From the NCBI GenBank assembly GCA_963676915.2, contig CAXXVK010000060.1, positions 128,001-192,000 of the forward strand: a stretch of DNA of 64,000 nt. Direction: 5' to 3'. The first letter of the stretch is position 1. Each line of letters opens with the position of its first letter. Below, piece after piece: positions 40-46,535 of the stretch. The translations under genes and the position numbers were made by a program. The notes beneath the pieces were generated by a model, which searched no databases, was not told where the DNA came from, and saw only the letters and a list, made by a program, of their open reading frames with translations. Source of the DNA: Myxococcota bacterium (GTDB lineage: Bacteria > Myxococcota_A > SURF-8 > G963663525).

Positions 40-3000
40 ATGGTGAAAAATCACTGGTCGGCCTGTCGTAACGTCATCATGAGTTGTTGGCTTCTCGGGG
101 TGCTGCTGCTCTCCGGAATGGCACGAGCCGAAACGAAGATCGTCAACCCGTGGGAAACCCGTTTCGACCAATACGCCCGTACGGCGCTGAAACAATCCTC
201 CGGTCCCGAAGGTCTGGCGGCGATGCAAGACGCCGTTCGTATACATGACAAACTCTCGAACGGCGAAAAACTGTTCGACCTCAGTCGAAAACTGCTCGAA
301 AAGAAAAAAGTCGGCGTCGAATTGCGTCGTTTGGCCCAATGGCAACTCTATCGGAAAGCCTGGACGACCGACAACGGCGCAGAGGTCGAAAAAATTCTGT
401 CGAAACTGGGAGTTGTCCGTCATTGGCGCTTCGTCGGTCCTTTCGATAACGAGGGCGGAACGGGTCACGATCGAAGTTTTGCGCCGGAAGAGGAATTCAA
501 CCTTTCGGCCAGCTATTCCGGCAAGGAACGTCCGGTTTCTTGGCGCGATTTCCCGGATTTTCCCAGCAACGGTCGCCTGCGATTCAACCGCGTTATGACG
601 CCAGCGGAACGAACGACCGTATACGCTCAGTCCTGGGTGCAGTCTAAGAAAAATGTCAATGTCCTGGCGTTTTTCGCTTCGTCCGGTGCGGCCAAGATCT
701 GGATCAACGGAAAACAGGTTCACGAGCAGGAAAACGGACGAGACTGGGGAACGTCTCAGGATGCTTTTCACATTCGCTTGAAGAAGGGATTCAACGAAAT
801 CGTCGTCAAAATCTCTTCCAAGGACCGCAGCTCGTCGTTCAGGCTTTCTCTGGCCGACCGGCGACGTGGGATGGTGGTCAAAGGCCTGCATGTTCTGAAT
901 ACCGACGAACGCACCCGACAGGCGCAAAAACTGAAAACGTCGCGTCCCCTGAAAACAGGGAAAATCCGTGCGTTTCCGCTGATGCATGACAAGGTTGTAA
1001 AAAAAGCCAACAAGGGAAAACATGCCGCGCAAGCCTTGCTCGCCGCGCGCCTGCTGTACGAAAACCGTGATTTTCTGACCGAAAGCAAGCTCGACGAGGA
1101 GTTTTTGCGACAGGCATTGGAGACCAAACGACCCAGTGCGGCCTTGTACGAAGCCTGTATACGGATCGAAGACAACGCCAATCGTCGGCGGCATTGCATC
1201 GAGGATTGGATGTCCCTTGAGCCTACAAATCCCCGTCCCCGATGGCAACTGGCGCGGGAACTTCGAAAAATGCGCCACGATACGTTGGCTCGTAAAGAGT
1301 TGAATCAACTGGTGAAACGTCCCGAAGCCATGGTTATCGCCGAGTTGGAACTGGCACGCCTGGATGCTGCCGACAGCCTGCCGGGTCGTGCGCTCGCTCG
1401 GGTACGAAGGGCACAACAAGCCCTTCCTAAAGTCGTGTACCTTAAGGAAGAACTTCTAAAACGCTACCGCGCCGAAGGCATGACCGCAAACACCCGTGCT
1501 CTGGAAGACGACTTGCTGGAGCGCGACCGTAGGGACCACAACCTGCTTTCTCGTCTGTATCATCGGCAGATTCAATTGGAGCAGCCCGAAAAAGCGCTCG
1601 AAACGCTCAACCGCATGATGGTATTGCGACCCTACAAAATCTATCCTCGTCAACGAAAAGCGGTGTTGTTGGAGTCCCTTGGTAAATCCGAAGAGGCTCG
1701 CTCCGTGCTGCTGGCAGGACTCGAACTGTTTCCCGAATCCCACGAATTGCTTGAAAGCCTGGGACATTTCGAACGGGCGCAGGGAAACATCCCCGAAGCG
1801 ATTCGTTACTTCGAAAACGCTTTGGCTATCGTACCGCAAAATCCCGAATTGAGCCGCTACGTGGCGCAACTAAGTCCGCAGGTTCCCGCTTTCGAAGAGG
1901 AATTCCTCGTGGATGCCGAAGCCTGGATCGCTTCCCATCCGCCCATTGAAAACGACGATACCCTATCGCGCCAATTGCTGTCTTTGAACGTTTATAAAGT
2001 ACATGCCAACGGATTGTTCAGCGTGTTTCACCAATCCCTGGTTCGGGTCAACACCTTCAGCGCCGTGGAAAACTACCGGGTGCAGTACGAAAGTTACTCT
2101 GCCGACAGTCAGTCCTTGACGGTGCAAAAGGCCCGGATTTTCAAACCCGACGGGAGGATCATCGAGCGCTCGGCGATTCGGGAACACGGGATGAACGAGC
2201 GCTATAAAATGTTTTTCGACTACCGCAGCACCTCGATTCATTTCGATGAGCTGGCTCCCGGCGACGTGATCGAAATCCGTTACCGTCTCGACGACACCGC
2301 CCGCAACAATCTTTTCGCCGATTATTTCGGATTTTTGGAACCTCTGCGGAAAACGGAGCCGATAACCCATGCCGAAGTGGTCGTATTGGCTCCGAAAGAC
2401 AAAAAACTGTACTGGAACCACCCGGTCGAAGCTCCCGAACCGCTGGTCGAGGCACGAGGCGACGAAGTCTTGTACCGGTGGTTGGCTCAAGACGTACCGA
2501 AAATCAAAAATGAACCCAACATGCCGAGCCTGTTCGAGATTGCAGCTCCTTTGAAAGTGTCTACGTTCAAAGACTGGCAGCACATGGGTAGCTGGTACTG
2601 GGGATTGATCGAAGACCAGTTGGACGCCGGAGAAGAGTTGCGGAGCAAGGCCAGAGAGATCGCCGCCGGAGCCGAAAGCGTCGAGGAAAAAGTCAAAGCC
2701 GTATACGATTGGGTGGTGCGCAATACCCGGTACATCGGCCTGGAGTTCGGCATTCACAGCTATAAACCCTATCAGGTCAACGACATCTATCAACGAAAGT
2801 TCGGAGATTGCAAAGACAAGGCGTCGCTGATGGTCGCTATGCTGGACGAACTGGGCGTGAAAGCTCAAATGGTGGTGCTGCGCACCAGCAACCTGGGAGC
2901 CATCGAGCCGTATCCCCCGGCGCTCAACATGTTCAACCACGCCATCGCTTACGTTCCGGCCCTGGATCTTTACCTGGACGGTACCGCCCGAATTCGCGGG

Positions 3001-3754
3001 TACCGGCGAGTTGCACGCTTTCGACCGGCGCGGTCAGGCCATGGTGCTCGACTCTGAAAACGTACGATTCACGCAGATTCCCCCACTGGACCCGGAAAAG
3101 AATTTTACGGAACAGGTGCAGGATATCGTCTGGTCGGGCAACGAGGCTGTGACGATGACGGGCGAGTTTATCGTGCATGGCGTGCAGGCTCCTTCGTTAC
3201 GAAGAGCCTTGCAGGATGTCGCCCAGCGGCGGGAAACTCTCGAACGCCTGTTCAACCGCAGTTTCCCGGGCTCCGAGCTTGTGTCCTACGAACTGAAAGA
3301 TCTAGACGACTTCGAGAGACCGCCACGACTGGATTTCGAGTTGAACGTACCGGACATGGCCCGTAAGGAAGGCTCGAACTGGGTGATTCCCGGCAGTTCC
3401 GAAACCCGTTTCGAAAAGAGACTTGCCCCGCAATCCGAGCGGGAGCATCCGTTGGTGATCGCCCAGCCTGATAACGCTACGATTACCACTCTTTTCAAAT
3501 TTCCCGAAGGAGCGCGAACGATTCGATTGCCCGAAAGTGTTTCGATCGACAAACCGTTCGGGCGCTTCAGCTTCGAGGTGAACGTCAAGCCCGAAGGGGT
3601 CGAAATCCAGCGCTCGGTGCAATTCCTGCACCCGAAGATTTCTCCCAAGGACTATCCCGAATTCAAGCGTTTTTGCCAGGAAATCGACAAAGCGACACGA
3701 CAGTTGATCGTACTCGACACCGAGGGAGGGCAGCATGTCCGGGCGAACCCGTAA
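40..3754 (+). CDS. Secreted TPR + DUF3857 + transglutaminase-like protein (one frameshift near 2990-3010 joins ORFs 40..3057 and 3011..3754)
   Basis: Signal peptide; beta-sandwich segment (WRFVGPFDNEGG...LKKGFNEIVVK); TPRs; DUF3857-like GDVIEIRY; transglutaminase triad motifs GDCKDKA, FNHAI, YLDGT; C-terminal domain continues in the second ORF. Confidence 0.8.
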
Positions 3755-6700: not shown

Positions 6701-7593
6701 TCTGGCTCGGCCGCTGACCTTTCCCGAACCCGAGACGGATTGGGTGCTCAACAGTTTGTACGACGACCTGATGCTCGAAGTGTTTCCCGCCGACCACGAA
6801 CCGGTGATCGTCGATTCCGAACGCAAACGTTCCTTTTTCGGACGAACCAGCCCGATTCTCAGTGGAGCCGAAATCCTACCGCTGGAAGACGGACCGGTGT
6901 TTTCGCGCCTGGCGGTGCGAAGTTCGATTCCCGATCTGCGTTGGCTGGAAATGGCGGTGCAGTTGACCCCGGAAGGGCATGCGAAGATCGCTATTGCCGA
7001 ATCCGCCGATGGGTATTATTCCGCAGGCTACCGTAATGTTCTGGAACGCATTCCGCCTGATCGAATGAACATGGCTTTGGAATCGCTGCTGAATACGAAT
7101 TTCTGGGGTGCGAAGCTCAACGAATTCGAAATCCTGAACCTCGAAGAACCCCGTAAACCCTTGCTGCTGAACTACGATTTTTCAGCACTGCAACTTGCGA
7201 GAAAAACCGGCATCGATGCGTTTGCGACTCGAAAAAGGGTTTTACCCGCTGAACCTGACCCGCAGTTACATCAAGCTCCCGATGCGGCGTTATCCGTTGT
7301 ACGTCAATGCGCCCAACAGCTCGGTGATGCAGGTCGAACTTTCTCCACCGGAAGGCTACCGTTTCGAGAGCTATCCCGAAAGCCGAGAGATTCACAGTCG
7401 GTTCGGCGTGGTGCGGTTTTCGATCGAACTGAGAGAGGGCCGCTTGATCCTGCTACGGAGGCACGCCATTCCCGTACAGGTGATTTCTCCCAAAGATTAC
7501 GCGGATTTCTTCACGTTCTGCCAAGAAGTGGACCGCTTCGAGAAACAACCGATCCTGCTGAAGAAGGAAGATCCCATCGCCTTAGCAGACTAG
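3735..7593 (+). CDS. Lipoprotein TPR + DUF3857 + degenerate transglutaminase-like protein (about 4 frameshifts; pieces 3735-5258, 5068-, 5255-, 5646-, 7195-7593)
   Basis: Lipobox WIFGC; WLYVGPFG domain paralogous to the upstream gene; TPRs; GDCIEMDY; C-terminal ISPKDYADF mirrors ISPKDYPEF of the upstream gene. Confidence 0.7.
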
Positions 7594-7604
7594 TTGTTTA
7601 GGGA

Positions 7605-7632
7605 GTAGGTCGGGCAAATTTCTTGCCCGACA
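7605..7632 (+). repeat. REP family 1 palindrome (GTAG-GTCGGGCAAATTTCTTGCCCGACA)
   Basis: GTAG tetranucleotide followed by a hairpin; identical copies at 11424 and 55242. Confidence 0.85.
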
Positions 7633-7641
7633 AATCCTTTT

Positions 7642-7735
7642 CCTATCGATGGAGCAGGATTGTATCCTGCTCCTCACGTTTTGCTATGAGAAGACAAACG
7701 TGTGGACGGGGATACAATCCCCGTCCTTCGATAGG
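7642..7735. repeat. REP family 2 inverted doublet (GATGGAGCAGGATTGTATCCTGCTCC ... GGACGGGGATACAATCCCCGTCC)
   Basis: Two hairpins in inverted orientation; near-identical unit at 19973-20051. Confidence 0.8.
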
Positions 7736-7780
7736 GAAATTATCGGGTGAAAATTAATTGATTTACGAAAAGGATTTCTT

Positions 7781-8659
7781 CTAGGCTTTTTGGGCGAACA
7801 CGGCTCGGGGTTTGTCGGTCAGGTCGTTTTCGGCACGAACCGATTCCCAGATGTGTGACCGTTGCAACGCTTCGACTGCCAACGGCACCGTGTAGTGATC
7901 CAACTCCAGTGCAAGCCAGCCTTTCGGGGCCATTAGCGGAGCTACTTCGTCGATCAACGTCCCTACCCAGCGGAAACCGTCGGTTCCGCCATCGAGGGCC
8001 AGCGTCGGTTCGAACTCGCGGACTTCGCGGGGTAGAGATTCCATCACGGGACTCGGAATATACGGTAGATTCGCCGCCACCAGATCGAAGAATCCCGTTT
8101 TTTCCGCCACGGGTTGGAGTAGATCGCCTTCGAGAAAATGCACCCGCTCGGCCACACCCGCCGCTTCGGCATTGACTCGCGCCAGGTCGAGGGCGTCACG
8201 AGAAACATCCACGGCCCAGACCTCCGCACGAGGCCAGCCTGCCGCCAACGCACAGGCGATCACACCGGAACCGGTACCGACATCCAGCACATGGAGAGGT
8301 CTTAAAGAACCGGAAGATGCGATGGTTTCGAAGATCCGTTCCACCAACCACTCGGTTTCGGGTCGCGGGATCAACACCCGACGATCCACCTGGACTCTCA
8401 GGTCATGAAACGGTTGTTCTCCGGTGATATATTGGACCGGCTCTCCGGTGGCGCGCCTGCGCACCGCCTCGCGGAAACGGTCGCGTTCTTCCTGCAGAAC
8501 GGGTTGATCCCAGCGGGTGTAGAGTTCCATCCGGCGGCAGTCCAGCACCCAGGCCAGCAGAATTTCCGCATCTACACGGGGAGAAGCGATGTTTTTGGAT
8601 TCGAAATAATCGGTGGTCCACTTGATAAGTTCGATTGTCGTCCAGTGTTTTTCAGTCAT
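7781..8659 (-). CDS. prmC: Release factor glutamine N5-methyltransferase
   Basis: RRATGEPVQYITG, VLIPRPETE, LDVGTGSG, ANLPY, ALDGG motifs; start taken at MTEKHW. Confidence 0.95.
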   Translation of the reverse strand: MTEKHWTTIELIKWTTDYFESKNIASPRVDAEILLAWVLDCRRMELYTRWDQPVLQEERDRFREAVRRRATGEPVQYITGEQPFHDLRVQVDRRVLIPRPETEWLVERIFETIASSGSLRPLHVLDVGTGSGVIACALAAGWPRAEVWAVDVSRDALDLARVNAEAAGVAERVHFLEGDLLQPVAEKTGFFDLVAANLPYIPSPVMESLPREVREFEPTLALDGGTDGFRWVGTLIDEVAPLMAPKGWLALELDHYTVPLAVEALQRSHIWESVRAENDLTDKPRAVFAQKA

Positions 8660-8778
8660 TGACCAACAAACCGATAGAAACGAATAACTTGCCAGTTGCA
8701 GCAAGCTACGTTAATAATTGAACAAAGTCCAGCTTTCCCAAAATCGTATCAACTTCTGGACCAACAAGGGGCATCGGC

Positions 8779-11745: not shown

Positions 11746-13755
11746 TCAGGTAATCGCCACTGACGATGGTTTTATCCCCAGCCTGGCGTGAATGCGCACG
11801 TAGCTTCGGGTGTCATTCGTTCCCTGTAATACGTATTGACCTTCGGTGGCGGCGGGTGCGTCAACAGTCGCTTCTTGTCCGTAATCGGGAATATCGTCGC
11901 CCCATTCCACACGATAGGTCGCCGCTTCGCTGCATGTCCAGGTGATCGTCGCGGTCAGACCGTCACGCTGGATTTCGATATCCGTAATCAACAACTGGCT
12001 TCGCTCGACGGGCTGGGTGTTGTCCGCTACCAGTTTCTCGGCTTCGTCGGCGAAACGGCGCATGTCCGAAGGTCGAGCCGGATAGGCTTCCCCCACTTCC
12101 GCTTCGGCCTCATCGGCGGTTTCGCGCAGGCGGTCGATGCGTATCGGATCATGCCGTCGTTGTCGTCCAGGTAGCGCACCCAAAGGATTTCCGCCACCCA
12201 TGTCCAGGCACGCAAGGCATAGTGATGCACGCGCAGTCGTTTGTGCAAGTCCTCGTAATCGCTGGCATTCAACGAATCTTTGATGGATTCCAGATCGGCG
12301 AGACTCAAGGCCACGAGACTCAACGCCTCCTGTTTTTCCTGGTGGATTTCCTCGATGGTGGCCATGTCGGGACTTTTCAGCCTGTCGAACCAGCTCTCGT
12401 AGTCGGGATCGTACAGCGCCATGTTGCGGCTATCAATTCGTTGGCTACGATTTTTTCCGGCATGGAAGATCCTTTTTCCAAGGCCCAGAAACCGAGAATG
12501 TAATACATCTTTCGATTGAAATCGTACGATCTTTCCAAGGCTCGCTGTAATACTTTTCCTTCTGTACTATTTTTCGTAATACTATACTTGCTTTCGAGCC
12601 AACTCTGCCAAAGGTCGTCGTGTACGTTTTTATAGCCGTGTTCGTGCAGGTAGGAAATGGCAAAGACGTTGATTTCGTTGGGTTGTCCGATAGCATGGTG
12701 GCTTCCTCTCTCGATACGCGAGACCGTGCCCACCCCCTTGTGATTCCATAAATAGTCCCATCGCTCGATGTAGTATTTCGGAGCCATCCACAACAGATAA
12801 GAAAGTCCCCAGTATTCTCCGGCCAGATCCAGCTCGACCACCGACGGGCGCGGTCCCTACGTCGCCGATCAGCTTGTTGTCCGGGTAGTAGGGTTCCCAG
12901 TCCTGGGGCTGGTCTTTGCTCATACCGTAGAAATTCACATCTTCGCCAATGGCCCGCAGTCCGGTGCCGATGTATTCCAACTCTTGCGGAGAATGGATGA
13001 AGGACCGGACGTACATTCCCTTCCCCAGTTCGTTAACCACGACCCTCACCGACGACACGAGTCACCTGTGCCACCCGGTCTCCACCGTAGGGCCACAGCA
13101 CCGACAATTGATCGTCGGGTACGTCCTCCTCGTCGGGTTTGTTCTCTTCGCACCAGTCGCACGTACAGATGGAGTACCAGATGTCGGGGCTTGCGGAACC
13201 GTACATCAGGACGATGCCGTCGATGTCGGGTTGTTGCTCGAAAAACAGCCGGTAGGCATCACGTCGCTCGTCCCAGAACGGATCTTCGGGATCGAAACAA
13301 ACGGTGAGCCGATTGCCGGTAAACTCATGCGCCCAGGCGAAAACCTCCAAACCTTCCGCTTTGGCCAGGCTCGCCGCGTCGGCCAGACGTTCGCGCTTTT
13401 GCAGGCTCTCCTCGTCGTCGAAAATCACCTCGTCGATATCCATAATCAGGTCGTGGCTCAACTGAACGTGGTTGACGCCGAAATCCTTTGCCATTTTCAC
13501 GACTTCGGCAACGTGTTCCAGGTCGGAGTCCAATAGAATCCATCCGTTGACCGCTTCGTAGCGGCTGCGGTCGAAGGTCCACTGCTCGGTGGTTTCTCCG
13601 TTTTCGGTGGAGTCCGACTCTTCCGAAATCTCCGACAGGTCGGTATCGCTATCTCCTGCTACGGTGGAATCATCCGAGGAGGAACAGGCGATCAGGAAAA
13701 ATCCCAAAAGAACTGCAAGCCACGGTTGAACGTAGAATTTTCGAGAAATATTCAT
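11746..13755 (-). CDS. Large lipoprotein, possibly TIM-barrel glycoside-hydrolase-like, with C-terminal beta-sandwich (about 4 frameshifts)
   Basis: Lipobox FLIAC and acidic linker; alternating beta/alpha pattern (GVNHVQLSH, VFAWAHE, IDGIVL); consecutive overlapping minus-strand ORFs from 13033-13962 down to 11746-12201. Confidence 0.55.
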
Positions 13756-14105
13756 AGGTTGAAGCTCCATTCGAAACATGTTTTCTATTTTCGAAAAAAC
13801 GGTTGATTGCGAAATAAATGCCGTTTCTTTGTCTCCGCAGAGTATACCGTGCCGTTCCGAACTTAGACAGGTCAATGGAAAAGTTGAAAAAGTCGAAATT
13901 TTCTGGCACAATACTATAACATTGGGATCGTCTAACGAGGGACTGGACTGCCACACGTGCATTCATAGCGGCGAATCGTGTTTCGTGCAAGGCTCGAATG
14001 AAAAACACATGAAACTCCAGCGGGAGTTGTCGTCCGTTTGAAAGCGAAGAAACCAAGATAAAAATGGGTAAAACGCTCTAAATGAGCGATATTTCCAGCT
14101 TTTGC

Positions 14106-14134
14106 TTGACAGTACAAGACCCCTTCCCTAGACT
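14106..14134 (+). promoter_or_regulatory. Sigma70-type promoter
   Basis: TTGACA-17 nt-TAGACT about 95 nt upstream of the 14228 start, which has an AAGGAG RBS. Confidence 0.6.
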
Positions 14135-14227
14135 TCGGGGTTGCTTGAGAGCAATGTTGTATTCAGGTTTGGTTTGGTGGCGTATCGAAGCGCTGCACCC
14201 TGTTCGATTTAACAAGGAGATCATCTG

Positions 14228-15540
14228 ATGAAGAAGCTTCACTTTCTGTTCTTAGCGGCGCTGTTCGCTTTTTCTGTCGGCATCGGCGGCTGTCTCGATC
14301 TTGGAGATGACGAGGGAGACAACAACAACGACAACGGCGGCGACGAAGACGTCGATAGCACGGACACCAACCCTTACATAAATCCCAATACTTGCAGCGG
14401 TTCCTGTATCGCCAACGAAACCACCTGCCTGCCCAATGGTGCCGGTGGATATACCTGGTGCATCTGCCCTCCGACCACCCTCGTCTGGAGCCCGCAGGAT
14501 TGCTCTACCCGTTGCGGCGACCAAGCCGTGCTCGGTTGCGCGGACGACCCGGATGATTCTCTTGGAGCCAAAGCCGTATGCATCTGCGGCGAAGAAGCCA
14601 GCCATAATTGCGGAAACGGCACCATCGACGAAGGCGAGGAATGCGAACCCACCGACATCTCCAACTGCGACACCGGTGAAACCTGCAGTTCCACCACGTG
14701 CATGTGCATGAATGAAAGCCAGGGTGACTGCGGCAACGGCACCATCGACGACGATGAGGAATGCGAGCCGACCGATCTCTCCAACTGCGCCACCGGCGAA
14801 ACCTGCAACTCCGTAACCTGCCTGTGCGAAGACGGAACCGATCCCTACTGCGGCGACGGCACGGTCAACGGCACCGAAGAGTGCGAACCCACCGACCTGT
14901 CCAACTGCAACACGGGTGAAACCTGCAACTCGGTGAGCTGCCTGTGCGAAGGCGGAACGGAACCCTACTGCGGCGACGGCACGGTCAACGGCACCGAAGA
15001 GTGCGAACCCACCGATTTGTCCAACTGCAACGCGGGGCGAGTCCTGCAACTCGGCGACCTGCGTGTGCCAGGGTGGCAACACCGGCGACGGCACTTGCAT
15101 CAGCTTCGGAAGCACCCTGGAATGTCGTCAGGGATGCACCCCGCAAGCCAACACCTGTGGTGACGGTTTCCAATGCTACGGCTATGCCGGTTCAACTGGT
15201 TCCGAGCTTGTTCTTGGTGGTGGTCGCTGTGTCCTGCTGGCGGAAACTCAGGCGGAATGGGATAACTGGGTTGCCTCATTGGATTCCTGCACCGACACCT
15301 GCCCCACCGGCTACGTTTGCCTCGGGTAGCAGTGAATCAGGCACTTGCTTCCCGGAATGCAACATCACGAGCGACACCTGCCCGTCGGATTACTTCCCAG
15401 GCTACGAAAACTACAACAAAGTTCCGTGGGCCTGCGTTGGCTACGAAGCCACCGATGGCAGCACCGTGGGTCTGTGCGAGCCGTGGGGCGATGCTCCCAC
15501 CTGCTCTACTGCGGGAGAAGCCTGCGATCCTGTAGACTGA
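14228..15540 (+). CDS. Cysteine-rich repeat lipoprotein (Myxococcus-type CGNG/CGDG repeats; frameshifts near 15035 and 15325)
   Basis: Lipobox IGGC; four CG[ND]GT...EECEPTD[IL]SNC...C...C.C repeats; Cys-rich C-terminus. Confidence 0.8.
14609..15070 (+). repeat. Intragenic tandem repeat, 4 x ~120 bp
   Basis: TGCGG(A/C)(A/G)ACGGCAC...GCGAACCCACCGA...TCCAACTGC recurs at 120-bp period. Confidence 0.9.
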
Positions 15541-15919: not shown

Positions 15920-17254
15920 TCAATCGGAGGCTCGCCGGGCACGTTCCTCGTTGAGCATCCGTTGGATGGAGTCGCGCACCTGTTTCGACAACCGACCGAT
16001 AGCCACTCGATCGTCGGCAGCCTCCGGCCCGAAGCGGTTGACGTAGATCGGTTCGCCGAAACGGATCGTCCATTTCACCGGGAAAGGTACGAGTCCCGCC
16101 GGTCCCAGCCAAGGGAAAGTCGGCGTAACCGGGAAGTACGGCAGCTTGAACAGTCGGGCGATTCCCCGAACGTTGCCCACGATAGGATGGGTTTCCTCCG
16201 AACCGATGACGGCTACGGGAATGACGGGGGCGTCGGTGGTCAGACTGAGCTTGATATACCCACCCCGACCGAAACGCTGAAGCTGATAGCGCATACTGTA
16301 TGGCTTGTTGATACCTTTGATCCCTTCCGGGAATACCAGAACCGCTTCGTCCTGCAACAGCAGACGCTGGGCGTTTTCCTGGCAGGCCCGGATGAATCCC
16401 AGCTTGTTCAGCGACACCCCGAGAATCGGCGGGTAATAGAAAAAGTCTTCGACCATGGGCCAGACGTTACGGGACGCGGCATGCTCCCGATGAACCGCCG
16501 ACATTACCATCAGACCGTCGTAAGGCAGGATTCCCGAATGATTTCCGACCAGTAAAACACGACCGTTTTCCGGAATATTGGAGACGCCACGGACCTGAAC
16601 CCGCCACCAGTACTTGTAAAGAAACGAAACGATGGGGTCTAGTTTCTCGCGGAACTTCGGATCGAAGCCCAGTTCTTCGCCGGGAGTGGTTTCTTCGAGC
16701 CGTAGTTTGTCGTAATAGGCGGGATTGCCAACGAATGCGTGTGGATTTTCGGCATATTTCACGGGAAGCTGCACACTTCCCACTTTCGAATTCGCCGTAT
16801 GAGTTGTACCGCCTTCTGCGGCCAGTACTTCGACGTCCGGTTTTAGGGGTGTGGTTTTCTTTTTCGCAACGGGACGTTTTTTCGCCACCGTTTTTTTGGA
16901 TGACGCTGCGGCCTTTGCCGTCTTTTTCGTTGCGGTTTTTTTCGACGTATCGCTTTTTTTCGCGGTCTTGGACATTTTGGCCGCTGTGGTTTTGGTTTTG
17001 GAAGACGCCGTTTTCTTTTTCGCGGTCGTACTCTTTTTGGCCGTTTTTTTCGGTGCCTTGGAGCTTTTGGTTTGTTTCGTCGCGGTCTTTTTCGACGCCT
17101 TCGGAGAAGAGGCGGCTTTTCTTTTTTGAACGGTCTTTGCGGGTTTTTCCTCGGCCTTTTTCTTCGGCTTGTCGGGATGGTTTTCGTTCAAACGGTTCGA
17201 CAGGGGATCGTTACCCAGTACGCTGTTCTTTTTACTGGCCACGGTTTGCCTCAA
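15920..17254 (-). CDS. Lysophospholipid acyltransferase-family protein with N-terminal Lys/Ala-rich histone-like tail
   Basis: LVGNHSG...DG, VLVFPEG, FGRGG, PVIPVAVIG motifs; ~110 aa of KKTA/KTAK repeats. Confidence 0.9.
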   Translation of the reverse strand: MRQTVASKKNSVLGNDPLSNRLNENHPDKPKKKAEEKPAKTVQKRKAASSPKASKKTATKQTKSSKAPKKTAKKSTTAKKKTASSKTKTTAAKMSKTAKKSDTSKKTATKKTAKAAASSKKTVAKKRPVAKKKTTPLKPDVEVLAAEGGTTHTANSKVGSVQLPVKYAENPHAFVGNPAYYDKLRLEETTPGEELGFDPKFREKLDPIVSFLYKYWWRVQVRGVSNIPENGRVLLVGNHSGILPYDGLMVMSAVHREHAASRNVWPMVEDFFYYPPILGVSLNKLGFIRACQENAQRLLLQDEAVLVFPEGIKGINKPYSMRYQLQRFGRGGYIKLSLTTDAPVIPVAVIGSEETHPIVGNVRGIARLFKLPYFPVTPTFPWLGPAGLVPFPVKWTIRFGEPIYVNRFGPEAADDRVAIGRLSKQVRDSIQRMLNEERARRASD

Positions 17255-18240: not shown

Positions 18241-18697
18241 GCAATCCCCTCCCGCGTCGTTGATCTTGGATCGCAGCCGTTCAACGGCTTTGTGCGACAT
18301 CGACCCTTCCGGCGAGTTCGAACCTTTTCCCGGTCCGATCCGCAGCAGGTATCGTATGCATTTCACAAAGAGGTTGACGGTTGCTATCCGAAAACGAAGT
18401 ATAGCATACCAAACTGAAAATGGAAGACCTGCAACAGGGATTGCACGACAAGGGCGTGGATTTTATGGAGAAAACGGAATGACAAAGCTGATAAAAACGA
18501 ATTTCACACATGGTCGATAGTTTCTCTGGATTTCCACACAAACGCTCGCCATTCTCCTTGTGAAAAGAGAAGGTTCCATGGTAAGGTCTGCCGTCGAAAG
18601 TGTGTGAATGCAACAAACGGAAAGCGTTCCGGCGCGGCTCGAAAAACTTCGGGCAGACGGAGCGTTGTCCCGTTTCCAGGTCAAAGGAGTCGTATCG

Positions 18698-19903
18698 ATG
18701 AAACGGATTGTACCCGTGTTATTTCTGATACTTGCTCTCACGGTCCATGTGGCCTGCGAGAGCGGTGGCGAAGAATCGTCCACCGCAAAAACGGCAGAAT
18801 CCGGCAAGGCCGTCCTGCCGAAAGCCAAGGTTTCCAACAAGTTGGCGAAACTGAAAAACGCCAAAACCTCCAAGACGAAATCCGCCGCTCCGACCAAGGC
18901 GATGTCGACCAAAGAGATTGCCGCAAAATTCCCGGACGGAAAATACCCGGTGTTGTCCGTAAAGGACCAGGAGTTCGATTTCGGAACGGTGCAACAGGGT
19001 GAAGACGCCAAACACGTCTTCGTCTTGCGCAACAACGGCAAGGCGATGTTGAACATCGAAAAAGCCAAAGGATCTTGAGGCTGCACGGCCGCCATCGTTT
19101 CCGAGGCGGACGTTCCCCCGGGTGGGGAAGCCAAAGTGGAAGTCAAAGTCAGCACTCGTGGCCGCAAAGGCATGTTGAAAAAAAGCATTCGGGTGTATTC
19201 CAACGATCCGGCCAGCCCTGTGACCACCCTGACTATGAAAGGCACGGTGGAAATCGAGTTGGGATTGGATAAAACCTATCTGCGTTTACACGATCTCGAA
19301 ATAGGCAAAACTCAGGAAAACCGCATTCAAATCGTTGCAAAAAGCCTCAAAGGGCTTTCGTTTGGTGCGGTCGATAGCGGAAATCCCGATGTCGTGGCTT
19401 CGATCGTCTGGGACAAAGATGCGAAAGGTCAGCGAACGCCGTTTTTGGAAGTCAAGGTCACGCCTACGAAACTCGGAAGGCTCTCACGTACGGTGAAAGT
19501 CGCCACGAACCGTGAGAATCCCAAAGAACTCGTGCTGCGGATTTCGGGAGAGGTCAGCGGCGACCTGACGATACAGCCGAAAAGCATCACGTTTTACGGA
19601 AGAAACGACAACAAACCGCAAGAACGGTTCATCACGGTTTCTTCGAAGAAAAAATCCTTCAAAGTGGTTTCCGCAAAAGACACCAAAGGCGAATTGAAAA
19701 CCAAGGTTCAGGCGATCGAGAAAGACAAGCAATACAAAATCACCGTATCGCCCCCGGAGAACATCTCGAAGAATTTCAGCACCAAACTGACGGTCACCAC
19801 AAATCATCCCGACCAGCCGACGCTTGAAATTCCCATTCACGTGCGAATTCCGAAACCTCGTCCGCTTCCGAAAAAACCCGGAGTGGGACTCAAAAAGAAG
19901 TAA
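18698..19903 (+). CDS. DUF1573/Ig-like lipoprotein, probable selenoprotein (TGA 19076-19078 read as Sec, S-U-G-C motif), 401 aa
   Basis: AAGGAG RBS; lipobox VHVAC; ORFs 18608..19078 and 19136..19903 are in the same frame; read-through gives FDFG...LRNNGKAMLNIEKAKGS-U-GCTAAIVSEADVPPGG, matching the DUF1573 SCGCT motif. Confidence 0.8.
19085..19113 (+). promoter_or_regulatory. Candidate bacterial SECIS hairpin
   Basis: ACG-G-CCGCC-A-TCG-TTTC-CGA-GGCGG-A-CGT stem-loop beginning 7 nt after the TGA; G at the loop edge ~18 nt after the codon. Confidence 0.5.
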
Positions 19904-19921: not shown

Positions 19922-19956
19922 AAAAGGGCGGACCCACCACGGTCCGCCTTTTTTTT
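19922..19956 (+). terminator. Intrinsic terminator
   Basis: GGCGGACC-CACCAC-GGTCCGCC followed by a T-tract. Confidence 0.85.
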
Positions 19957-24903: not shown

Positions 24904-25770
24904 GACAGTGTCGACACGAGAAAACGATTTATCTGGACAAAATCCTCGGCTTCTCGATATATTTCTATTTACTAGAATATATCGAGAGGAATTACCATGG
25001 AAGCTGCCTACCATCGTCACGATATTTCCGATCACGTATGGAATCTCCTGGAACCCCATCTACCTGGACGCTCCGGCGAGTGGGGAGGCGTGGCGGAAGA
25101 CAATCGACGATTCATCAATGCTGTTTTCTGGATTCTGCGTACCGGTGCGCCGTGGCGTGACCTACCCCCGGATTACGGTGGCTGGAACAACACGAACCGT
25201 CGTTTTTGCCGATGGCGCGACAAGGGAATCTGGGAGAAATTGCTTGAGATCCTCATTGACGATCCCGACTACGAATGGTTGATGATCGACGCCAGCCACG
25301 TCAAAGTGCATCCTGACGCCGCAGGAGCGAAGGGTGGCAATCAAGCGATGGGCCGTACAAAAGGGGGCTCAACAGTAAGATACATTTGGCCGTGGATGCG
25401 CATGGTAATCCAGTCCGAGCGATTGTTACAGAGGGTACCCGAGCAGATTGCAAGGAAGCTTGCGCATTGATCGAAGGAATCGACGCCGAGTATTTATTGG
25501 CTGATCGCGGCTACGATACGAACGTGATCCTTGAAAAAGCCGAAAACGCGGAGATGGTGGCAGTCATTCCTCCGAAAAAGAATCGGAAAGTTCAACGACC
25601 ATACGATAAAGAGCTTTATCGTGTTCGACATCTGGTCGAAAACGCTTTTCTGAAACTGAAACGATGGCGAGGAATCGCTACACGATACGCAAAAAACGCG
25701 GCATCTTTCCTCGCAGCCGTTCATATCAGATGTCTCGCTCTCTGGCTTGATATCTCGTGACGACACTGCC
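24904..25770 (+). mobile_element. IS5-family insertion sequence (IS427-like), 867 bp
   Basis: TIRs GACAGTGTCGACACGAGA / revcomp GGCAGTGTCGTCACGAGA; TA duplicated at 24902-24903 and 25771-25772. Confidence 0.92.
24997..25760 (+). CDS. IS5-family transposase (two ORFs joined by a -1 shift at AAAAGGGGG, 25359-25367)
   Basis: WILRTGAPWRDLP, MIDAS, GRTKGG|LNSKIHLAVD, LADRGYD, RHLVENAFLKLKRWRGIATRY. Confidence 0.92.
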
Positions 25771-45016: not shown

Positions 45017-45979
45017 TCAGTTTTTCGCTTTTCCGACAAGCTGTTGCAAACGTTCGAGCCGGGCTGGCTCCGACCGGGAAAACCACTCCATCGCCGATAG
45101 CAACTCGTATGCCTCGGCGGCGGATCGGGAGGCGAGTTCCGTTTGTCCTTTGGCGGCATACAGTTCGGCCAACTCTTCGTAAACAAAGCCGTCTTTTTCT
45201 CCGGCGGCATTCATTTCCCGTTCCAAAGCCTGCTGCATGTCCAAAGCCTCTTCGGCCTGTCCCATGGCTCGTAACGTACGAGCTACGCACCATGTCGCGA
45301 TCCGAATTTCTTTGGGTACTCCTGCGTTTTGCCGAAATTCCAGCGCGTCACGGAACATCGCCAACGCTTCGGAATACTCTCCCCGATCGAAGTACGTCCA
45401 GCCGAGGTTGTTGGTCAGGCTGCCTTTCCATTTTCGGGCTTTGGCGGAAGAACTACGCTCGACCATATCCAACGCCAGCCGGTTCCATTCCAGCGCGGTG
45501 TTCGGCTCGGCGACGATAGCAAGCATGTGGGCGGCATCGATGGCGTAAAACTCCTCTTTAAGTCCAAGCGCCAACCGAAAAGCCGCCAGAAACAGGGGAC
45601 GCGCACGGGTTTTGTCGCCTGCGGAGTTGAAACAGCGTCCTCGTTCCAACTGCAAACGGATCAGCGCAACACTTGGAGCATCGCCGATCAGCGCCTTTGC
45701 TTCGTCGAGACGGGTGTGGGCTTTATCGAATTGCGATCTCAGACTATGAGTCCGGGCGATCTGCGTGAGAAGTTCGGCGCGACGCAGTGGTTTCGTTTCG
45801 GCGGGGAAGCGGGACAGAAACTCGGTAAAGACACGTTCGGTATCTTCCGGGTGGTCGTAATCCCACAACCGGTCGAAATCTTCGGTCGACTCAACCGGTT
45901 TTTCAGGTTGTGGCTGAGGAGCCACTCCAGCGCAACCTACGAAAAAGACAACGAAAATGACAAGTAGTAAAGTACGCAT
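45017..45979 (-). CDS. TPR lipoprotein
   Basis: Lipobox FVGC; TQIART, LERGR, IDAAHMLA, NNLGW helical repeats. Confidence 0.82.
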   Translation of the reverse strand: MRTLLLVIFVVFFVGCAGVAPQPQPEKPVESTEDFDRLWDYDHPEDTERVFTEFLSRFPAETKPLRRAELLTQIARTHSLRSQFDKAHTRLDEAKALIGDAPSVALIRLQLERGRCFNSAGDKTRARPLFLAAFRLALGLKEEFYAIDAAHMLAIVAEPNTALEWNRLALDMVERSSSAKARKWKGSLTNNLGWTYFDRGEYSEALAMFRDALEFRQNAGVPKEIRIATWCVARTLRAMGQAEEALDMQQALEREMNAAGEKDGFVYEELAELYAAKGQTELASRSAAEAYELLSAMEWFSRSEPARLERLQQLVGKAKN

Positions 45980-46535
45980 CGCTTCCCTTTTTCCTTGCTC
46001 CACATCGTGTGGATCACTCCCGATCATGACGAATCAGAGAATATCGATTTACACCGTGATCTTGACTTATAACATACTGTAATTCTGTGTAAATGAGACG
46101 TAAAACAACGGGAAGGTGCATCAAAAAAGAGAGCACTAGACCCAATGATGATGAAGTTCTCATTCTTTCCTTTGGGTTGTCGCGGCGAGGCGGTAACCCA
46201 CTAAAAAAAAGGGATTGGCACGTAGGAAAGCGTCTTTCCATAGGCGGTGAATTTTTGTCTCGTCGCTACGGAATAAAGCAAGAATTTCTACAGCCACTAT
46301 ATTTTACGATGTGTCTGCTAGTATTTTTACTATAATATATTATTTGTAAACTTGTGCCGAAAATGGTACACTTTGACTGTTTTTGTATCGAAAAATGACG
46401 GCTGTGCCTGCTTTCCAGTACAGTGATTTTTGTTTTTGTTTGGCAATCAGGCCGGGTTACAGTATTCTCGGTTCTTGTTTCGGTTCGGACCAAACGAAGA
46501 AAACTTGCCCGATGTATGGGTCATAAAGGAAACGA

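What the first reader, a model, noticed from the sequence alone, without database searches (positions are those of the whole stretch)
18698..19903. Probable selenocysteine-containing DUF1573 lipoprotein (S-U-G-C)
Seen: an in-frame TGA at 19076-19078 (codon 127) splits one reading frame exactly at the first Cys of the SCGC(T) motif. The downstream half has no RBS of its own, and a stem-loop follows the TGA. Established: UGA aligned to a conserved Cys plus an adjacent hairpin is the hallmark of bacterial Sec recoding. Inference: an exported Ig-fold redox or metal-binding selenoprotein with a UxC motif that ORF callers split. Its function is unknown; whether this family is already catalogued as Sec-containing needs checking.
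Basis: partly seen in the sequence, partly recalled or inferred. Interest (0 to 1): 0.8.

Follow-up and report, generated by a model that had tools for sequence, protein, structure and literature searches.

The report
Known selenoprotein family, new myxobacterial member
The stop-like TGA inside this gene is almost certainly a selenocysteine codon in a membrane-anchored protein of unknown function, but this selenoprotein family has been catalogued since 2007, so the find is sound yet ordinary.

Summary
One frame runs from ATG 18698 to TAA 19903, with a single in-frame TGA at 19076-19078 (codon 127).

- **Sec position.** The TGA sits where 88 homologues have TGC or TGT, the first Cys of the C-G-C motif. 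Twenty genomes of the same phylum (closest named relatives are Myxococcota) carry TGA at that column.
- **Recoding signal.** Two hairpins follow the TGA. Helix 1 (19089-19109) covaries. Its loop starts at the same distance from UGA as the SECIS (Sec insertion hairpin) loop of this genome's FdhA-like (formate-dehydrogenase-like) gene. Helix 2 (19113-19129) forms fully in 18 of 19 Sec forms and 0 of 88 Cys forms.
- **Selection.** The downstream half is under the same purifying selection as the upstream half.
- **Machinery.** tRNA-Sec, selB and selD are intact in the genome. selA is present, but several frameshifts break it in this assembly.
- **Novelty.** The family is not new. NCBIfam NF041425, "OS_HP2 family (seleno)protein", matches above cut-off. 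Papers of 2007, 2008, 2022 and 2026 list OS_HP2 / DUF1573 (PF07610) as a UxC/UGC selenoprotein.
- **What is added here.** A three-Ig-domain lipoprotein architecture (AF2 pLDDT 95), the two-hairpin element, and a split between Sec and Cys forms that follows the Sec machinery.

Biochemical function remains inferred: a redox or soft-metal site in the cell envelope. Interest is low.

The parts
18684..18689 (+). Shine-Dalgarno-like AAGGAG, 8 nt before the start codon
   Evidence: read
18698..19903 (+). whole OS_HP2/DUF1573 selenoprotein gene, 401 codons plus TAA, with one in-frame TGA
   Evidence: Pfam PF07610 E 4.3e-30; NF041425 107.6 bits against a cut-off of 100
18698..18757 (+). signal peptide ending in Cys20 (lipobox-like V-A-C); the putative lipid-anchor Cys codon is 18755-18757
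   Evidence: a hydrophobic N-terminus ending in Cys in 9 of 9 Sec-form orthologues examined; no signal-peptide predictor was available, so this is inference
18758..18946 (+). Lys/Ala/Ser/Thr-rich low-complexity linker (residues 21-83), poorly conserved and variable in length
   Evidence: alignment A1
18956..19249 (+). DUF1573 / HYDIN-VesB-like Ig domain (residues 87-184) bearing the U-G-C motif
19076..19078 (+). TGA = selenocysteine codon (U127)
19082..19084 (+). TGC = Cys129, the invariant partner in the U-G-C motif
   Evidence: invariant in 108 of 108 sequences of A6
19089..19109 (+). helix 1, probable SECIS hairpin (alignment columns 14-34); its loop starts at the 19th nt after UGA
   Evidence: covariation; same loop position as the FdhA-like gene's hairpin
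19113..19129 (+). helix 2, UUCCCC-CGGGU-GGGGAA, laid over the codons for V-P-P-G-G-E
   Evidence: all six pairs form in 18 of 19 Sec forms and 0 of 88 Cys forms; 0 of 12 Cys forms that encode xPPGG use these codons
19259..19558 (+). second Ig-like beta-sandwich domain (residues about 188-287)
   Evidence: AF2 model
19565..19846 (+). third Ig-like beta-sandwich domain (residues about 290-383)
   Evidence: AF2 model; weak Cep192_D6 / DUF7579 hits
19847..19900 (+). Pro/Lys/Arg-rich C-terminal tail, lower model confidence
19927..19956 (+). intrinsic-terminator-like hairpin GGCGGACC-CACCAC-GGTCCGCC followed by T8
   Evidence: read; the scan listed the same stem only for the minus strand

Best explanation
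Window 18698-19903 is one gene for a selenoprotein of the OS_HP2 family (Pfam DUF1573, motif U-G-C).

Recoding (inferred by analogy with the bacterial Sec pathway). UGA127 is read as selenocysteine by SelB with Sec-tRNA(Sec), directed by the mRNA structure just downstream. Helix 1 starts 10 nt after the UGA, and its loop begins at the 19th nt after it. That is the same place as the SECIS loop of this genome's FdhA-like selenoprotein gene. A second GC-rich hairpin with a G-rich loop follows. Synonymous-site selection keeps it in nearly all Sec forms.

Product (inferred). The product is exported by an N-terminal signal peptide and probably lipid-anchored at Cys20. A Lys-rich linker follows, then a rod of three ASH/HYDIN-type Ig-like domains.

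Active site (inferred). U127-G-C129 sits in a loop of the first domain. The motif and N112 are invariant in 108 homologues, and H106 and K162 are nearly so. The likeliest chemistry is a reactive selenol that forms a reversible selenenylsulfide with C129. That would make the protein an envelope redox protein acting on thiols, disulfides or sulfur species. The same site could instead bind a soft metal.

Shown here: gene structure, Sec/Cys pairing, the RNA element, the fold class and the family membership. Inferred: export, lipidation and chemistry.
For: Family:
- PF07610 matches at E 4.3e-30.
- NF041425 'OS_HP2 family (seleno)protein' scores 107.6 bits against a cut-off of 100.
- The literature lists OS_HP2 = pfam07610 with motif UxC/UGC.

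Sec/Cys pairs:
- In 401 genomes of the phylum, 36 matches fall in 33 genomes. Twenty matches carry one in-frame TGA and 16 carry none.
- Every TGA examined maps to the U127 column (9, 19).
- Cys forms have TGC/TGT there (77 of 80; 11 of 30).

RNA element (alignment A5, 20 Sec forms):
- Pair 15/33 is CG in 10 and GC in 7. Pair 18/30 is CG in 17 and GC in 2.
- The covariation score is 0.153 against a shuffled mean of 0.054 (0 of 500 shuffles reach it) and at most 0.058 when the pairing is slid.
- Helix 2 forms fully in 18 of 19 Sec forms and 0 of 88 Cys forms. Helix 1 has at least 6 of 7 pairs in 13 of 19 Sec forms and 1 of 88 Cys forms.
- Twelve of 88 Cys forms encode the same xPPGG peptide, and none uses the hairpin codons.

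Selection against the same-genus orthologue:
- dN/dS is 0.216 downstream of the TGA (274 codons) and 0.217 upstream.
- dS is 0.233 in codons 128-145 and about 1.2-1.3 elsewhere.

Machinery in the own genome:
- tRNA-SeC with anticodon TCA.
- selB at 339 bits over positions 2-573 of 581, selD at 359 bits, and a selA core at 384 bits.
- A second Sec-type gene, FdhA-like, with TGA in C-A-R-T-U-H. Its downstream hairpin loop GGUCU starts at the same distance from UGA.

Co-occurrence across genomes:
- selA is found in 18 of 20 Sec-form genomes and 3 of 13 Cys-only genomes. tRNA-Sec is found in 18 of 20 and 4 of 13.
- Within one genus (g54), the two genomes with the machinery have TGA and the two without it have TGC.

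Structure:
- The AF2 model has mean pLDDT 95.2 and pTM 0.80 and shows three beta-sandwich domains. S-U-G-C lies in the non-strand segment between two strands.
- PDB matches are HYDIN/ASH-type Ig domains.

Export:
- A hydrophobic N-terminus ends in Cys in 9 of 9 Sec forms examined.
Against: - selA is broken in this assembly. Compared with the intact same-genus selA, the first ~190 codons change frame at least four times through single-base indels. rpoB is intact. If the breaks are real, this strain could not make Sec-tRNA and the gene would end at codon 126. One tuf copy also carries a 1-nt insertion relative to its otherwise near-identical twin, so assembly indels do occur.
- Two Sec-form genomes (G005, G009) gave no selA or selB match. 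G005 also gave no tRNA-Sec.
- The single-sequence fold is no better than shuffles.
- No Rfam family matches.
- One Sec form (G270) lacks helix 2.
- The genomes are related, so the counts overstate independence.
- There is no direct evidence for selenium in the protein, for lipidation or for any activity.
- Gene neighbourhood gives no functional hint. It is not conserved across the 12 orthologous loci examined.
Confidence: 0.9

Rival explanations
1. The gene is a genuine Sec gene by descent but is not decoded at present in this strain. selA is a pseudogene, so translation stops at UGA127 and only a 126-residue lipoprotein stub is made, or nothing stable.
For: selA of the own genome shows at least four frame changes in its first ~190 codons against the intact same-genus selA. 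rpoB (1377 codons) is intact, so the assembly is not riddled with frameshifts.
Against: tRNA-Sec, selB and selD are intact. Two Sec-type TGA genes keep open frames and their hairpins. dN/dS downstream of the TGA is 0.216. The assembly does hold at least one likely indel error, in a tuf copy. Depth in the one holding run is about 5.
Confidence: 0.08
2. The TGA is a true stop. It is either a sequencing error or nonsense mutation in a Cys-type DUF1573 gene, or the boundary between two separate genes.
For: Public gene calls hold the downstream piece as its own 255-aa protein. The single-sequence hairpin energy is unremarkable. The read check was not independent.
Against: The TGA sits at the same column in 20 genomes, with protein identity to the window's protein falling to about 24%. 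The domain is split in its middle. A Sec-form-specific RNA element is present. The downstream part is under purifying selection.
Confidence: 0.02
3. This reading keeps the same gene and recoding but gives the motif another role. U127, C129 and the nearly invariant H106 form a soft-metal site (Cu(I), Zn, Hg or Cd, or a metalloid such as selenium or arsenic species). The protein would then be an envelope metal-binding or metallochaperone lipoprotein, not an oxidoreductase.
For: Cys/Sec plus His are conserved: C127 and C129 are invariant and H106 is at least 90% conserved in 108 sequences. The fold is a non-enzymatic Ig-like domain with no catalytic relatives. Other selenoprotein families in the same review tables are metal-related (MerT-like, cation ATPase, YHS).
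Against: No metal-transport genes are conserved next to the gene. Most Sec residues of known function are redox-catalytic (statement in PMC2398784, passage seen).
Confidence: 0.3

Closest known systems
OS_HP2 selenoprotein family (NCBIfam NF041425; 'DUF1573 domain-containing protein, UGC' in reviews of prokaryotic selenoproteomes)
   Same: The domain is the same (PF07610). The motif is the same, with Sec at the first position of U-G-C. The match is above the curated cut-off. The family was first listed from symbionts of the gutless worm Olavius algarvensis and from ocean metagenomes.
   Different: This member comes from an uncultured Myxococcota-like genome (closest named relatives). It carries two further Ig-like domains, a lipoprotein-type signal peptide and a Lys-rich linker. 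The passages I read give no SECIS structure, architecture or function for OS_HP2. Figure 5 of PMC1976440 shows other families' SECIS elements, not that of OS_HP2 (legend seen).
Cys-containing DUF1573 proteins (C-G-C or C-S-C), widespread in Desulfuromonadales, Bacteroidota, Planctomycetota, Ignavibacteria and others
   Same: The domain is the same, as are the invariant N and C-x-C and the N-terminal signal peptides.
   Different: They have TGC/TGT in place of TGA and lack the two hairpins. Many have only one or two domains or different C-terminal parts (one search match ranges).
Bacterial SECIS as in formate dehydrogenase genes (E. coli fdhF type; details of that element are recalled, not from a call)
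   Same: A hairpin starts about 10 nt after UGA, inside the coding sequence, with a G/U-containing apical loop. Helix 1's loop starts at the same position as the loop of this genome's FdhA-like gene.
   Different: A second, nearly invariant hairpin lies 3 nt further downstream. It has no counterpart in the FdhA-like gene's first 60 nt. No Rfam model matches.
ASH / HYDIN / VesB-like Ig domains (PF22544, PF15780)
   Same: The fold class and sequence-profile similarity match.
   Different: Those domains are structural or scaffolding modules without a C-x-C or U-x-C loop. The one solved bacterial relative, 2qsv, has no Cys at the aligned positions.

Membership tests
OS_HP2 family (seleno)protein, NF041425 | Score at or above the curated cut-off of the NCBIfam model | tested here: met
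   107.6 bits against a cut-off of 100 with U read as C. The six-frame search, with the stop read through, gives 90.2 bits.
OS_HP2 family (seleno)protein, NF041425 | DUF1573 (PF07610) domain | tested here: met
   E 4.3e-30, residues 87-184, profile positions 2-98 of 98.
OS_HP2 family (seleno)protein, NF041425 | U-x-C (UGC) motif with Sec aligned to a conserved Cys of homologues | tested here: met
   S-U-G-C-T at residues 126-130. The column is TGC/TGT in 77 of 80 loci and 11 of 30 loci. C127 and C129 are invariant in A6.
Bacterial selenoprotein gene (SelB/SECIS-dependent recoding) | SECIS hairpin directly downstream of UGA | tested here: met
   Helix 1 covaries and sits where the FdhA-like gene's hairpin sits. 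Helix 2 is specific to the Sec forms. SelB binding itself was not tested.
Bacterial selenoprotein gene (SelB/SECIS-dependent recoding) | tRNA-Sec, SelB and SelD encoded in the genome | tested here: met
   anticodon TCA; 339 bits; 359 bits.
Bacterial selenoprotein gene (SelB/SECIS-dependent recoding) | Intact SelA (selenocysteine synthase) | tested here: inconclusive
   The core scores 384 bits, but the N-terminal ~190 codons change frame at least four times in this assembly. Whether this is an assembly error or real decay was not resolved.
Bacterial selenoprotein gene (SelB/SECIS-dependent recoding) | Selenium actually incorporated in the protein | not testable with these tools
   This needs 75Se labelling or mass spectrometry.
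Bacterial lipoprotein | Signal peptide with lipobox [LVI][ASTVI][GAS]C (consensus recalled, not from a call) | tested here: inconclusive
   The window has T-V-H-V-A-C: positions -1 and -2 fit, and -3 is His. Orthologues have L-A-A-C, L-A-S-C, V-A-G-C and similar. A Cys is present at this place in 9 of 9 Sec forms. No predictor was available.

The most novel reading that the evidence does not exclude
The nearly invariant second hairpin (19113-19129) is a recoding element of its own. It would let UGA127 be read in this lineage even where the canonical machinery is missing or broken. selA is frameshifted in this genome. No selA, selB or tRNA-Sec was found in the 3-contig genome G005, which still keeps TGA in OS_HP2 and in the FdhA-like gene. 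This would be decoding of a Sec-type UGA that does not depend on SelA or SelB.
Probability: 0.04. Interest if true: 0.7.

Novelty: new member of a known kind. Interest (0 to 1): 0.2.

Why it matters
The main value is for annotation. The gene is split in public protein sets: only the 255-aa downstream piece of the window's gene was found there. It should be joined and labelled as an OS_HP2 selenoprotein.

Three things go modestly beyond that:
- The survey shows the Sec form in 20 of 401 sampled genomes of this phylum. Within one genus, Sec and Cys forms swap in step with the Sec machinery.
- It defines a two-hairpin element that could improve bacterial SECIS models.
- It gives a confident three-domain model for a family whose function is still unknown. 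A selenol exposed on an envelope-anchored Ig rod is a tractable target for asking what DUF1573 proteins do.

Tried and rejected
- **Fold energy.** The single-sequence fold of 19070-19140 scored z = -0.10, so it says nothing either way.
- **Rfam.** There was no match at gathering thresholds over the window. At E up to 10 over 19040-19200, the only hit was a chance sRNA on the other strand.
- **Genome contigs, single protein.** No relative was found.
- **Genome contigs, alignment A1.** It was repeated with the 8-sequence alignment A4. One of the two search patterns required C-G-C, so that set is biased towards Cys forms.
- **PDB by sequence and by profile.** Only HYDIN-type Ig domains and 2qsv came up, and none has the C-x-C motif.
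- **Foldseek on the whole model.** It returned tandem Ig proteins with low TM-scores. The low scores may reflect a three-domain rod compared as one body.
- **Neighbourhood.** The window's neighbours are an acyltransferase, an epimerase, a DegT aminotransferase and radical-SAM genes, all on the other strand. Across 12 orthologous loci no partner is conserved. MlaD is adjacent in 2, a TonB-dependent receptor in 2, and a thioredoxin-PEGA protein in 1. Guilt by association therefore gave nothing.
- **The search for homologous proteins on residues 80-190.** Only 3 hits came back. This would fit Sec forms being split in that collection, as the window's own gene is (P0003).
- **Sequencing runs.** No RNA holder was listed. 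One run holds the whole stretch as an identical contig and may be the source. The two others laid nothing.
- **The protein-atlas search.** It does not take a protein read with TGA as a residue, and I did not pursue it.
- **The search of earlier findings.** It was closed.
- **Model coordinates.** They are not available to scripts, so the H106-U127-C129 geometry could not be measured.
- **Supplements.** I did not open those of the cited papers. They may hold SECIS drawings or alignments for OS_HP2.

Full report
**Observation.** The frame that starts at ATG 18698 is preceded by AAGGAG at 18684-18689 and runs to TAA 19901-19903. It holds one in-frame TGA at 19076-19078, codon 127. Table 11 splits it into a 156-aa ORF ending at the TGA and a 255-aa ORF from GTG 19136. 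The public protein collection holds that second piece as a separate protein (P0003). Read through, the 401-aa product has a DUF1573 domain at residues 87-184 (PF07610, E 4.3e-30; also PF22544, the HYDIN/VesB-like Ig domain). The TGA lies in the middle of that domain, in the motif S-U-G-C-T.

**Is the family known?** Yes.
- NCBIfam NF041425, "OS_HP2 family (seleno)protein", matches at 107.6 bits against a cut-off of 100.
- I saw the Table 2 passage of PMC1976440 (2007). It lists OS_HP2 among new selenoproteins of the Olavius symbionts.
- I saw the table passage of PMC2398784 (2008). It gives OS_HP2 = pfam07610, motif UxC, with 2 Sec sequences and 354 Cys homologues.
- I saw table passages of two reviews, PMC9312934 (2022) and PMC13188914 (2026). 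[quoted passage not shown]
- A full-text search for DUF1573 returned 4 papers. The other two only name such proteins in tables, one an expression table and one a vesicle proteome.
- I found no statement of function in any passage read. I did not open supplements.

**Sec/Cys pairs.**
- A search of 61 related genomes with the read-through protein found 9 places with exactly one TGA inside the match. A script showed that all 9 TGAs map to the U127 column. Five further loci had TGC/TGT there, and 3 weak matches had other residues (17 loci examined).
- A survey of 401 genomes of the phylum with NF041425 gave 36 matches in 33 genomes at E up to 1e-10. Twenty matches had one TGA and 16 had none.
- Of the 30 loci stored from that survey, 19 had TGA at the column and 11 had TGC/TGT. 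The twentieth Sec form (G007) was covered.
- A scan of one genome per species returned 80 loci: 3 with TGA and 77 with TGC/TGT. Over the 57 nt printed, the three TGA loci are identical to loci already held. One of the two search patterns demanded C-G-C, so this ratio is biased.
- The closest named records are Myxococcota / Myxococcales MAGs.

**The RNA element.** The 20 Sec forms were aligned for 75 nt from the TGA without gaps (A5).
- On the first 9 sequences, RNAalifold predicted two hairpins.
- Counting that structure on all 20 gives 88.1% of cells paired against a shuffled mean of 81.9%. The covariation score is 0.153 against 0.054 (0 of 500 shuffles reach it) and at most 0.058 for slid partners.
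- Helix 1 is alignment columns 14-21 with 28-34, window 19089-19109. It carries the compensatory changes: pair 15/33 is CG in 10, GC in 7 and UG in 1; pair 18/30 is CG in 17 and GC in 2; pair 21/28 is CG in 10, UA in 2, GC in 1 and UG in 1.
- Helix 2 is columns 38-43 with 49-54, window 19113-19129, reading UUCCCC-loop-GGGGAA. In one search, five of its six pairs are the common type in 19 of 20 Sec forms and the sixth in all 20. The loops are G-rich. G270 lacks it. RNAalifold on all 20 sequences kept helix 2 but not helix 1.
- Controls on Cys forms: helix 2 forms fully in 18 of 19 distinct Sec forms and 0 of 88 Cys forms. Helix 1 has at least 6 of 7 pairs in 13 of 19 and 1 of 88.
- Twelve of the 88 Cys forms encode the same x-P-P-G-G peptide, and none uses the codon set that makes the hairpin. 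The conservation is therefore at the RNA level.
- Against the same-genus orthologue, dS is 0.233 in codons 128-145 and about 1.2-1.3 elsewhere.
- This genome's FdhA-like gene has TGA in C-A-R-T-U-H, followed by a hairpin whose loop GGUCU begins at the 19th nt after the UGA. Helix 1's loop begins at the same position. I therefore take helix 1 as the likely SelB-binding hairpin and helix 2 as an accessory whose role is unknown.
- Neither hairpin matches an Rfam family. The single-sequence fold energy is unremarkable.

**Is the downstream half translated?** dN/dS between the window gene and its same-genus orthologue (66% identity) is 0.216 over the 274 codons after the TGA and 0.217 over the 120 aligned codons before it. 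The AF2 model needs both halves to build the first domain.

**Sec machinery.**
- The own genome holds a tRNA-SeC with anticodon TCA (62 bits), selB (339 bits, profile positions 2-573 of 581) and selD (359 bits).
- It has one selA locus, whose core scores 384 bits.
- The N-terminal ~190 codons of selA change frame at least four times through single-base indels, relative to the intact same-genus gene.
- rpoB is open over 1377 codons. However, one tuf copy has a 1-nt insertion against its twin, which is otherwise 1216 of 1218 identical. Single-base indels of doubtful reality therefore do occur in this assembly.
- The one holding run shows a depth of about 5. I could not resolve whether selA is truly broken.
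- Across the 33 genomes with an OS_HP2-like gene, selA is found in 18 of 20 Sec-form genomes and 3 of 13 Cys-only genomes. tRNA-Sec at E up to 1e-8 is found in 18 of 20 and 4 of 13. These genomes are kin, so the counts are not independent.
- In genus g54, the two genomes with selA and tRNA-Sec have TGA. The two without have TGC, and their sequences keep 5 of 6 helix-2 pairs.
- The exceptions are G005 and G009. G005 is a 3-contig genome with no selA, selB or tRNA-Sec match. G009 has no selA or selB match. Both keep TGA in OS_HP2 and in the FdhA-like gene. The simplest reading is that the single tRNA-Sec-selA-selB cluster is missing from those assemblies. In G004 and G007 the three lie side by side.

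**The protein.**
- The N-terminus MKRIVPVLFLILALTVHVAC is a signal peptide ending in Cys20. All 9 Sec forms examined have a Cys at that place, several in a canonical lipobox. Lipidation is inferred, because no predictor was available.
- A Lys-rich linker of variable length follows.
- AF2 with a 108-sequence alignment gives mean pLDDT 95.2 and pTM 0.80. It shows three beta-sandwich domains, at residues about 80-185, 188-287 and 290-383. The C-terminal Pro/Lys tail is less confident.
- S-U-G-C (model residues 47-50) lies in the non-strand segment between strands 39-46 and 51-55.
- PDB matches by fold and by profile are HYDIN/ASH-type Ig domains. The one solved bacterial relative, 2qsv, has no Cys at the motif.
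- In the 108 sequences N112, C/U127 and C129 are invariant. G96, H106, F108, G114, L118, G128, T130, A131, G158 and K162 are at least 90% conserved.
- The gene stands alone on its strand, between an epimerase and a DegT aminotransferase on the other strand. A terminator-like hairpin with T8 follows it. Neighbours are not conserved across 12 orthologous loci.

**Mechanism.**
- Shown: one gene, a Sec codon, an RNA element specific to the Sec forms, the family membership and the fold class.
- Inferred from the established bacterial Sec pathway: SelB with Sec-tRNA binds helix 1 while the ribosome reaches UGA127. The nascent chain is exported and anchored by Cys20.
- Inferred chemistry: an exposed selenol at 127, resolved by Cys129 into a selenenylsulfide, acting as an envelope redox centre. 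I put this at about 0.4. A soft-metal site using U127, C129 and perhaps H106 is the main alternative, at about 0.3. The rest is unknown.

**Verdict.** This is a new member of a known kind. Its value lies in annotation and in a few new details: the two-hairpin element, the three-domain lipoprotein architecture, and the Sec/Cys switching that follows the machinery in this phylum.

Noticed in passing
own genome, contig 4, about 45030-46308 (locus L018 about 615-1990, minus strand): selA is interrupted. Relative to the intact same-genus selA, the first ~190 codons change frame at least four times through single-base indels. The remaining 378-codon core is open.
   Followed up: partly
own genome, contig 10, 68208-69069 (L013) against 85451-86308 (L010): One of two near-identical tuf copies (1216 of 1218 bases the same) carries a 1-nt insertion that splits EF-Tu at about codon 87. 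This looks like an assembly indel.
   Followed up: yes
own genome, contig 72, about 229754-231028 (L168; TGA at locus position 1729-1731): A second Sec-type gene: a formate-dehydrogenase-like molybdopterin oxidoreductase with TGA in C-A-R-T-U-H. A hairpin with loop GGUCU follows. Orthologues in G001, G004, G005, G007 and G009 also have one TGA.
   Followed up: partly
relatives G005 (3 contigs) and G009: Both keep TGA in OS_HP2 and in the FdhA-like gene. G005 gave no selA, selB or tRNA-Sec match. G009 gave no selA or selB match. selD is present in both. The cluster is either missing from the assemblies or was lost very recently.
   Followed up: partly
loci L130 and L132 (genomes G123 and G383, genus g54): These Cys forms (C-S-C) come from genomes with no selA or tRNA-Sec match, yet they still keep 5 of 6 pairs of helix 2. 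Sister genomes G063 and G078 have the Sec form and the machinery. This looks like a recent Sec-to-Cys replacement with a fading hairpin.
   Followed up: partly
window 15920-17254, minus strand: This acyltransferase (PF01553) has an N-terminal extension of about 140 residues that is extremely rich in Lys, Ala, Thr and Ser, with a repetitive histone-H1-like composition.
   Followed up: no
window 24997-25470, plus strand: An IS4/IS5-family transposase N-terminal fragment (DUF4096) sits among radical-SAM and carbamoyltransferase genes.
   Followed up: no
locus L152 (G001), 6756-8663 plus strand and 317-3298: In the same-genus genome the orthologue has different neighbours from the window. On one side is a divergent 636-aa protein with thioredoxin/AhpC, PEGA and Lcl_C domains. 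On the other are two integrases and an IS91-type transposase.
   Followed up: no
window 11746-15163: Four ORFs of 151-311 aa have no Pfam match at E up to 1e-5.
   Followed up: no
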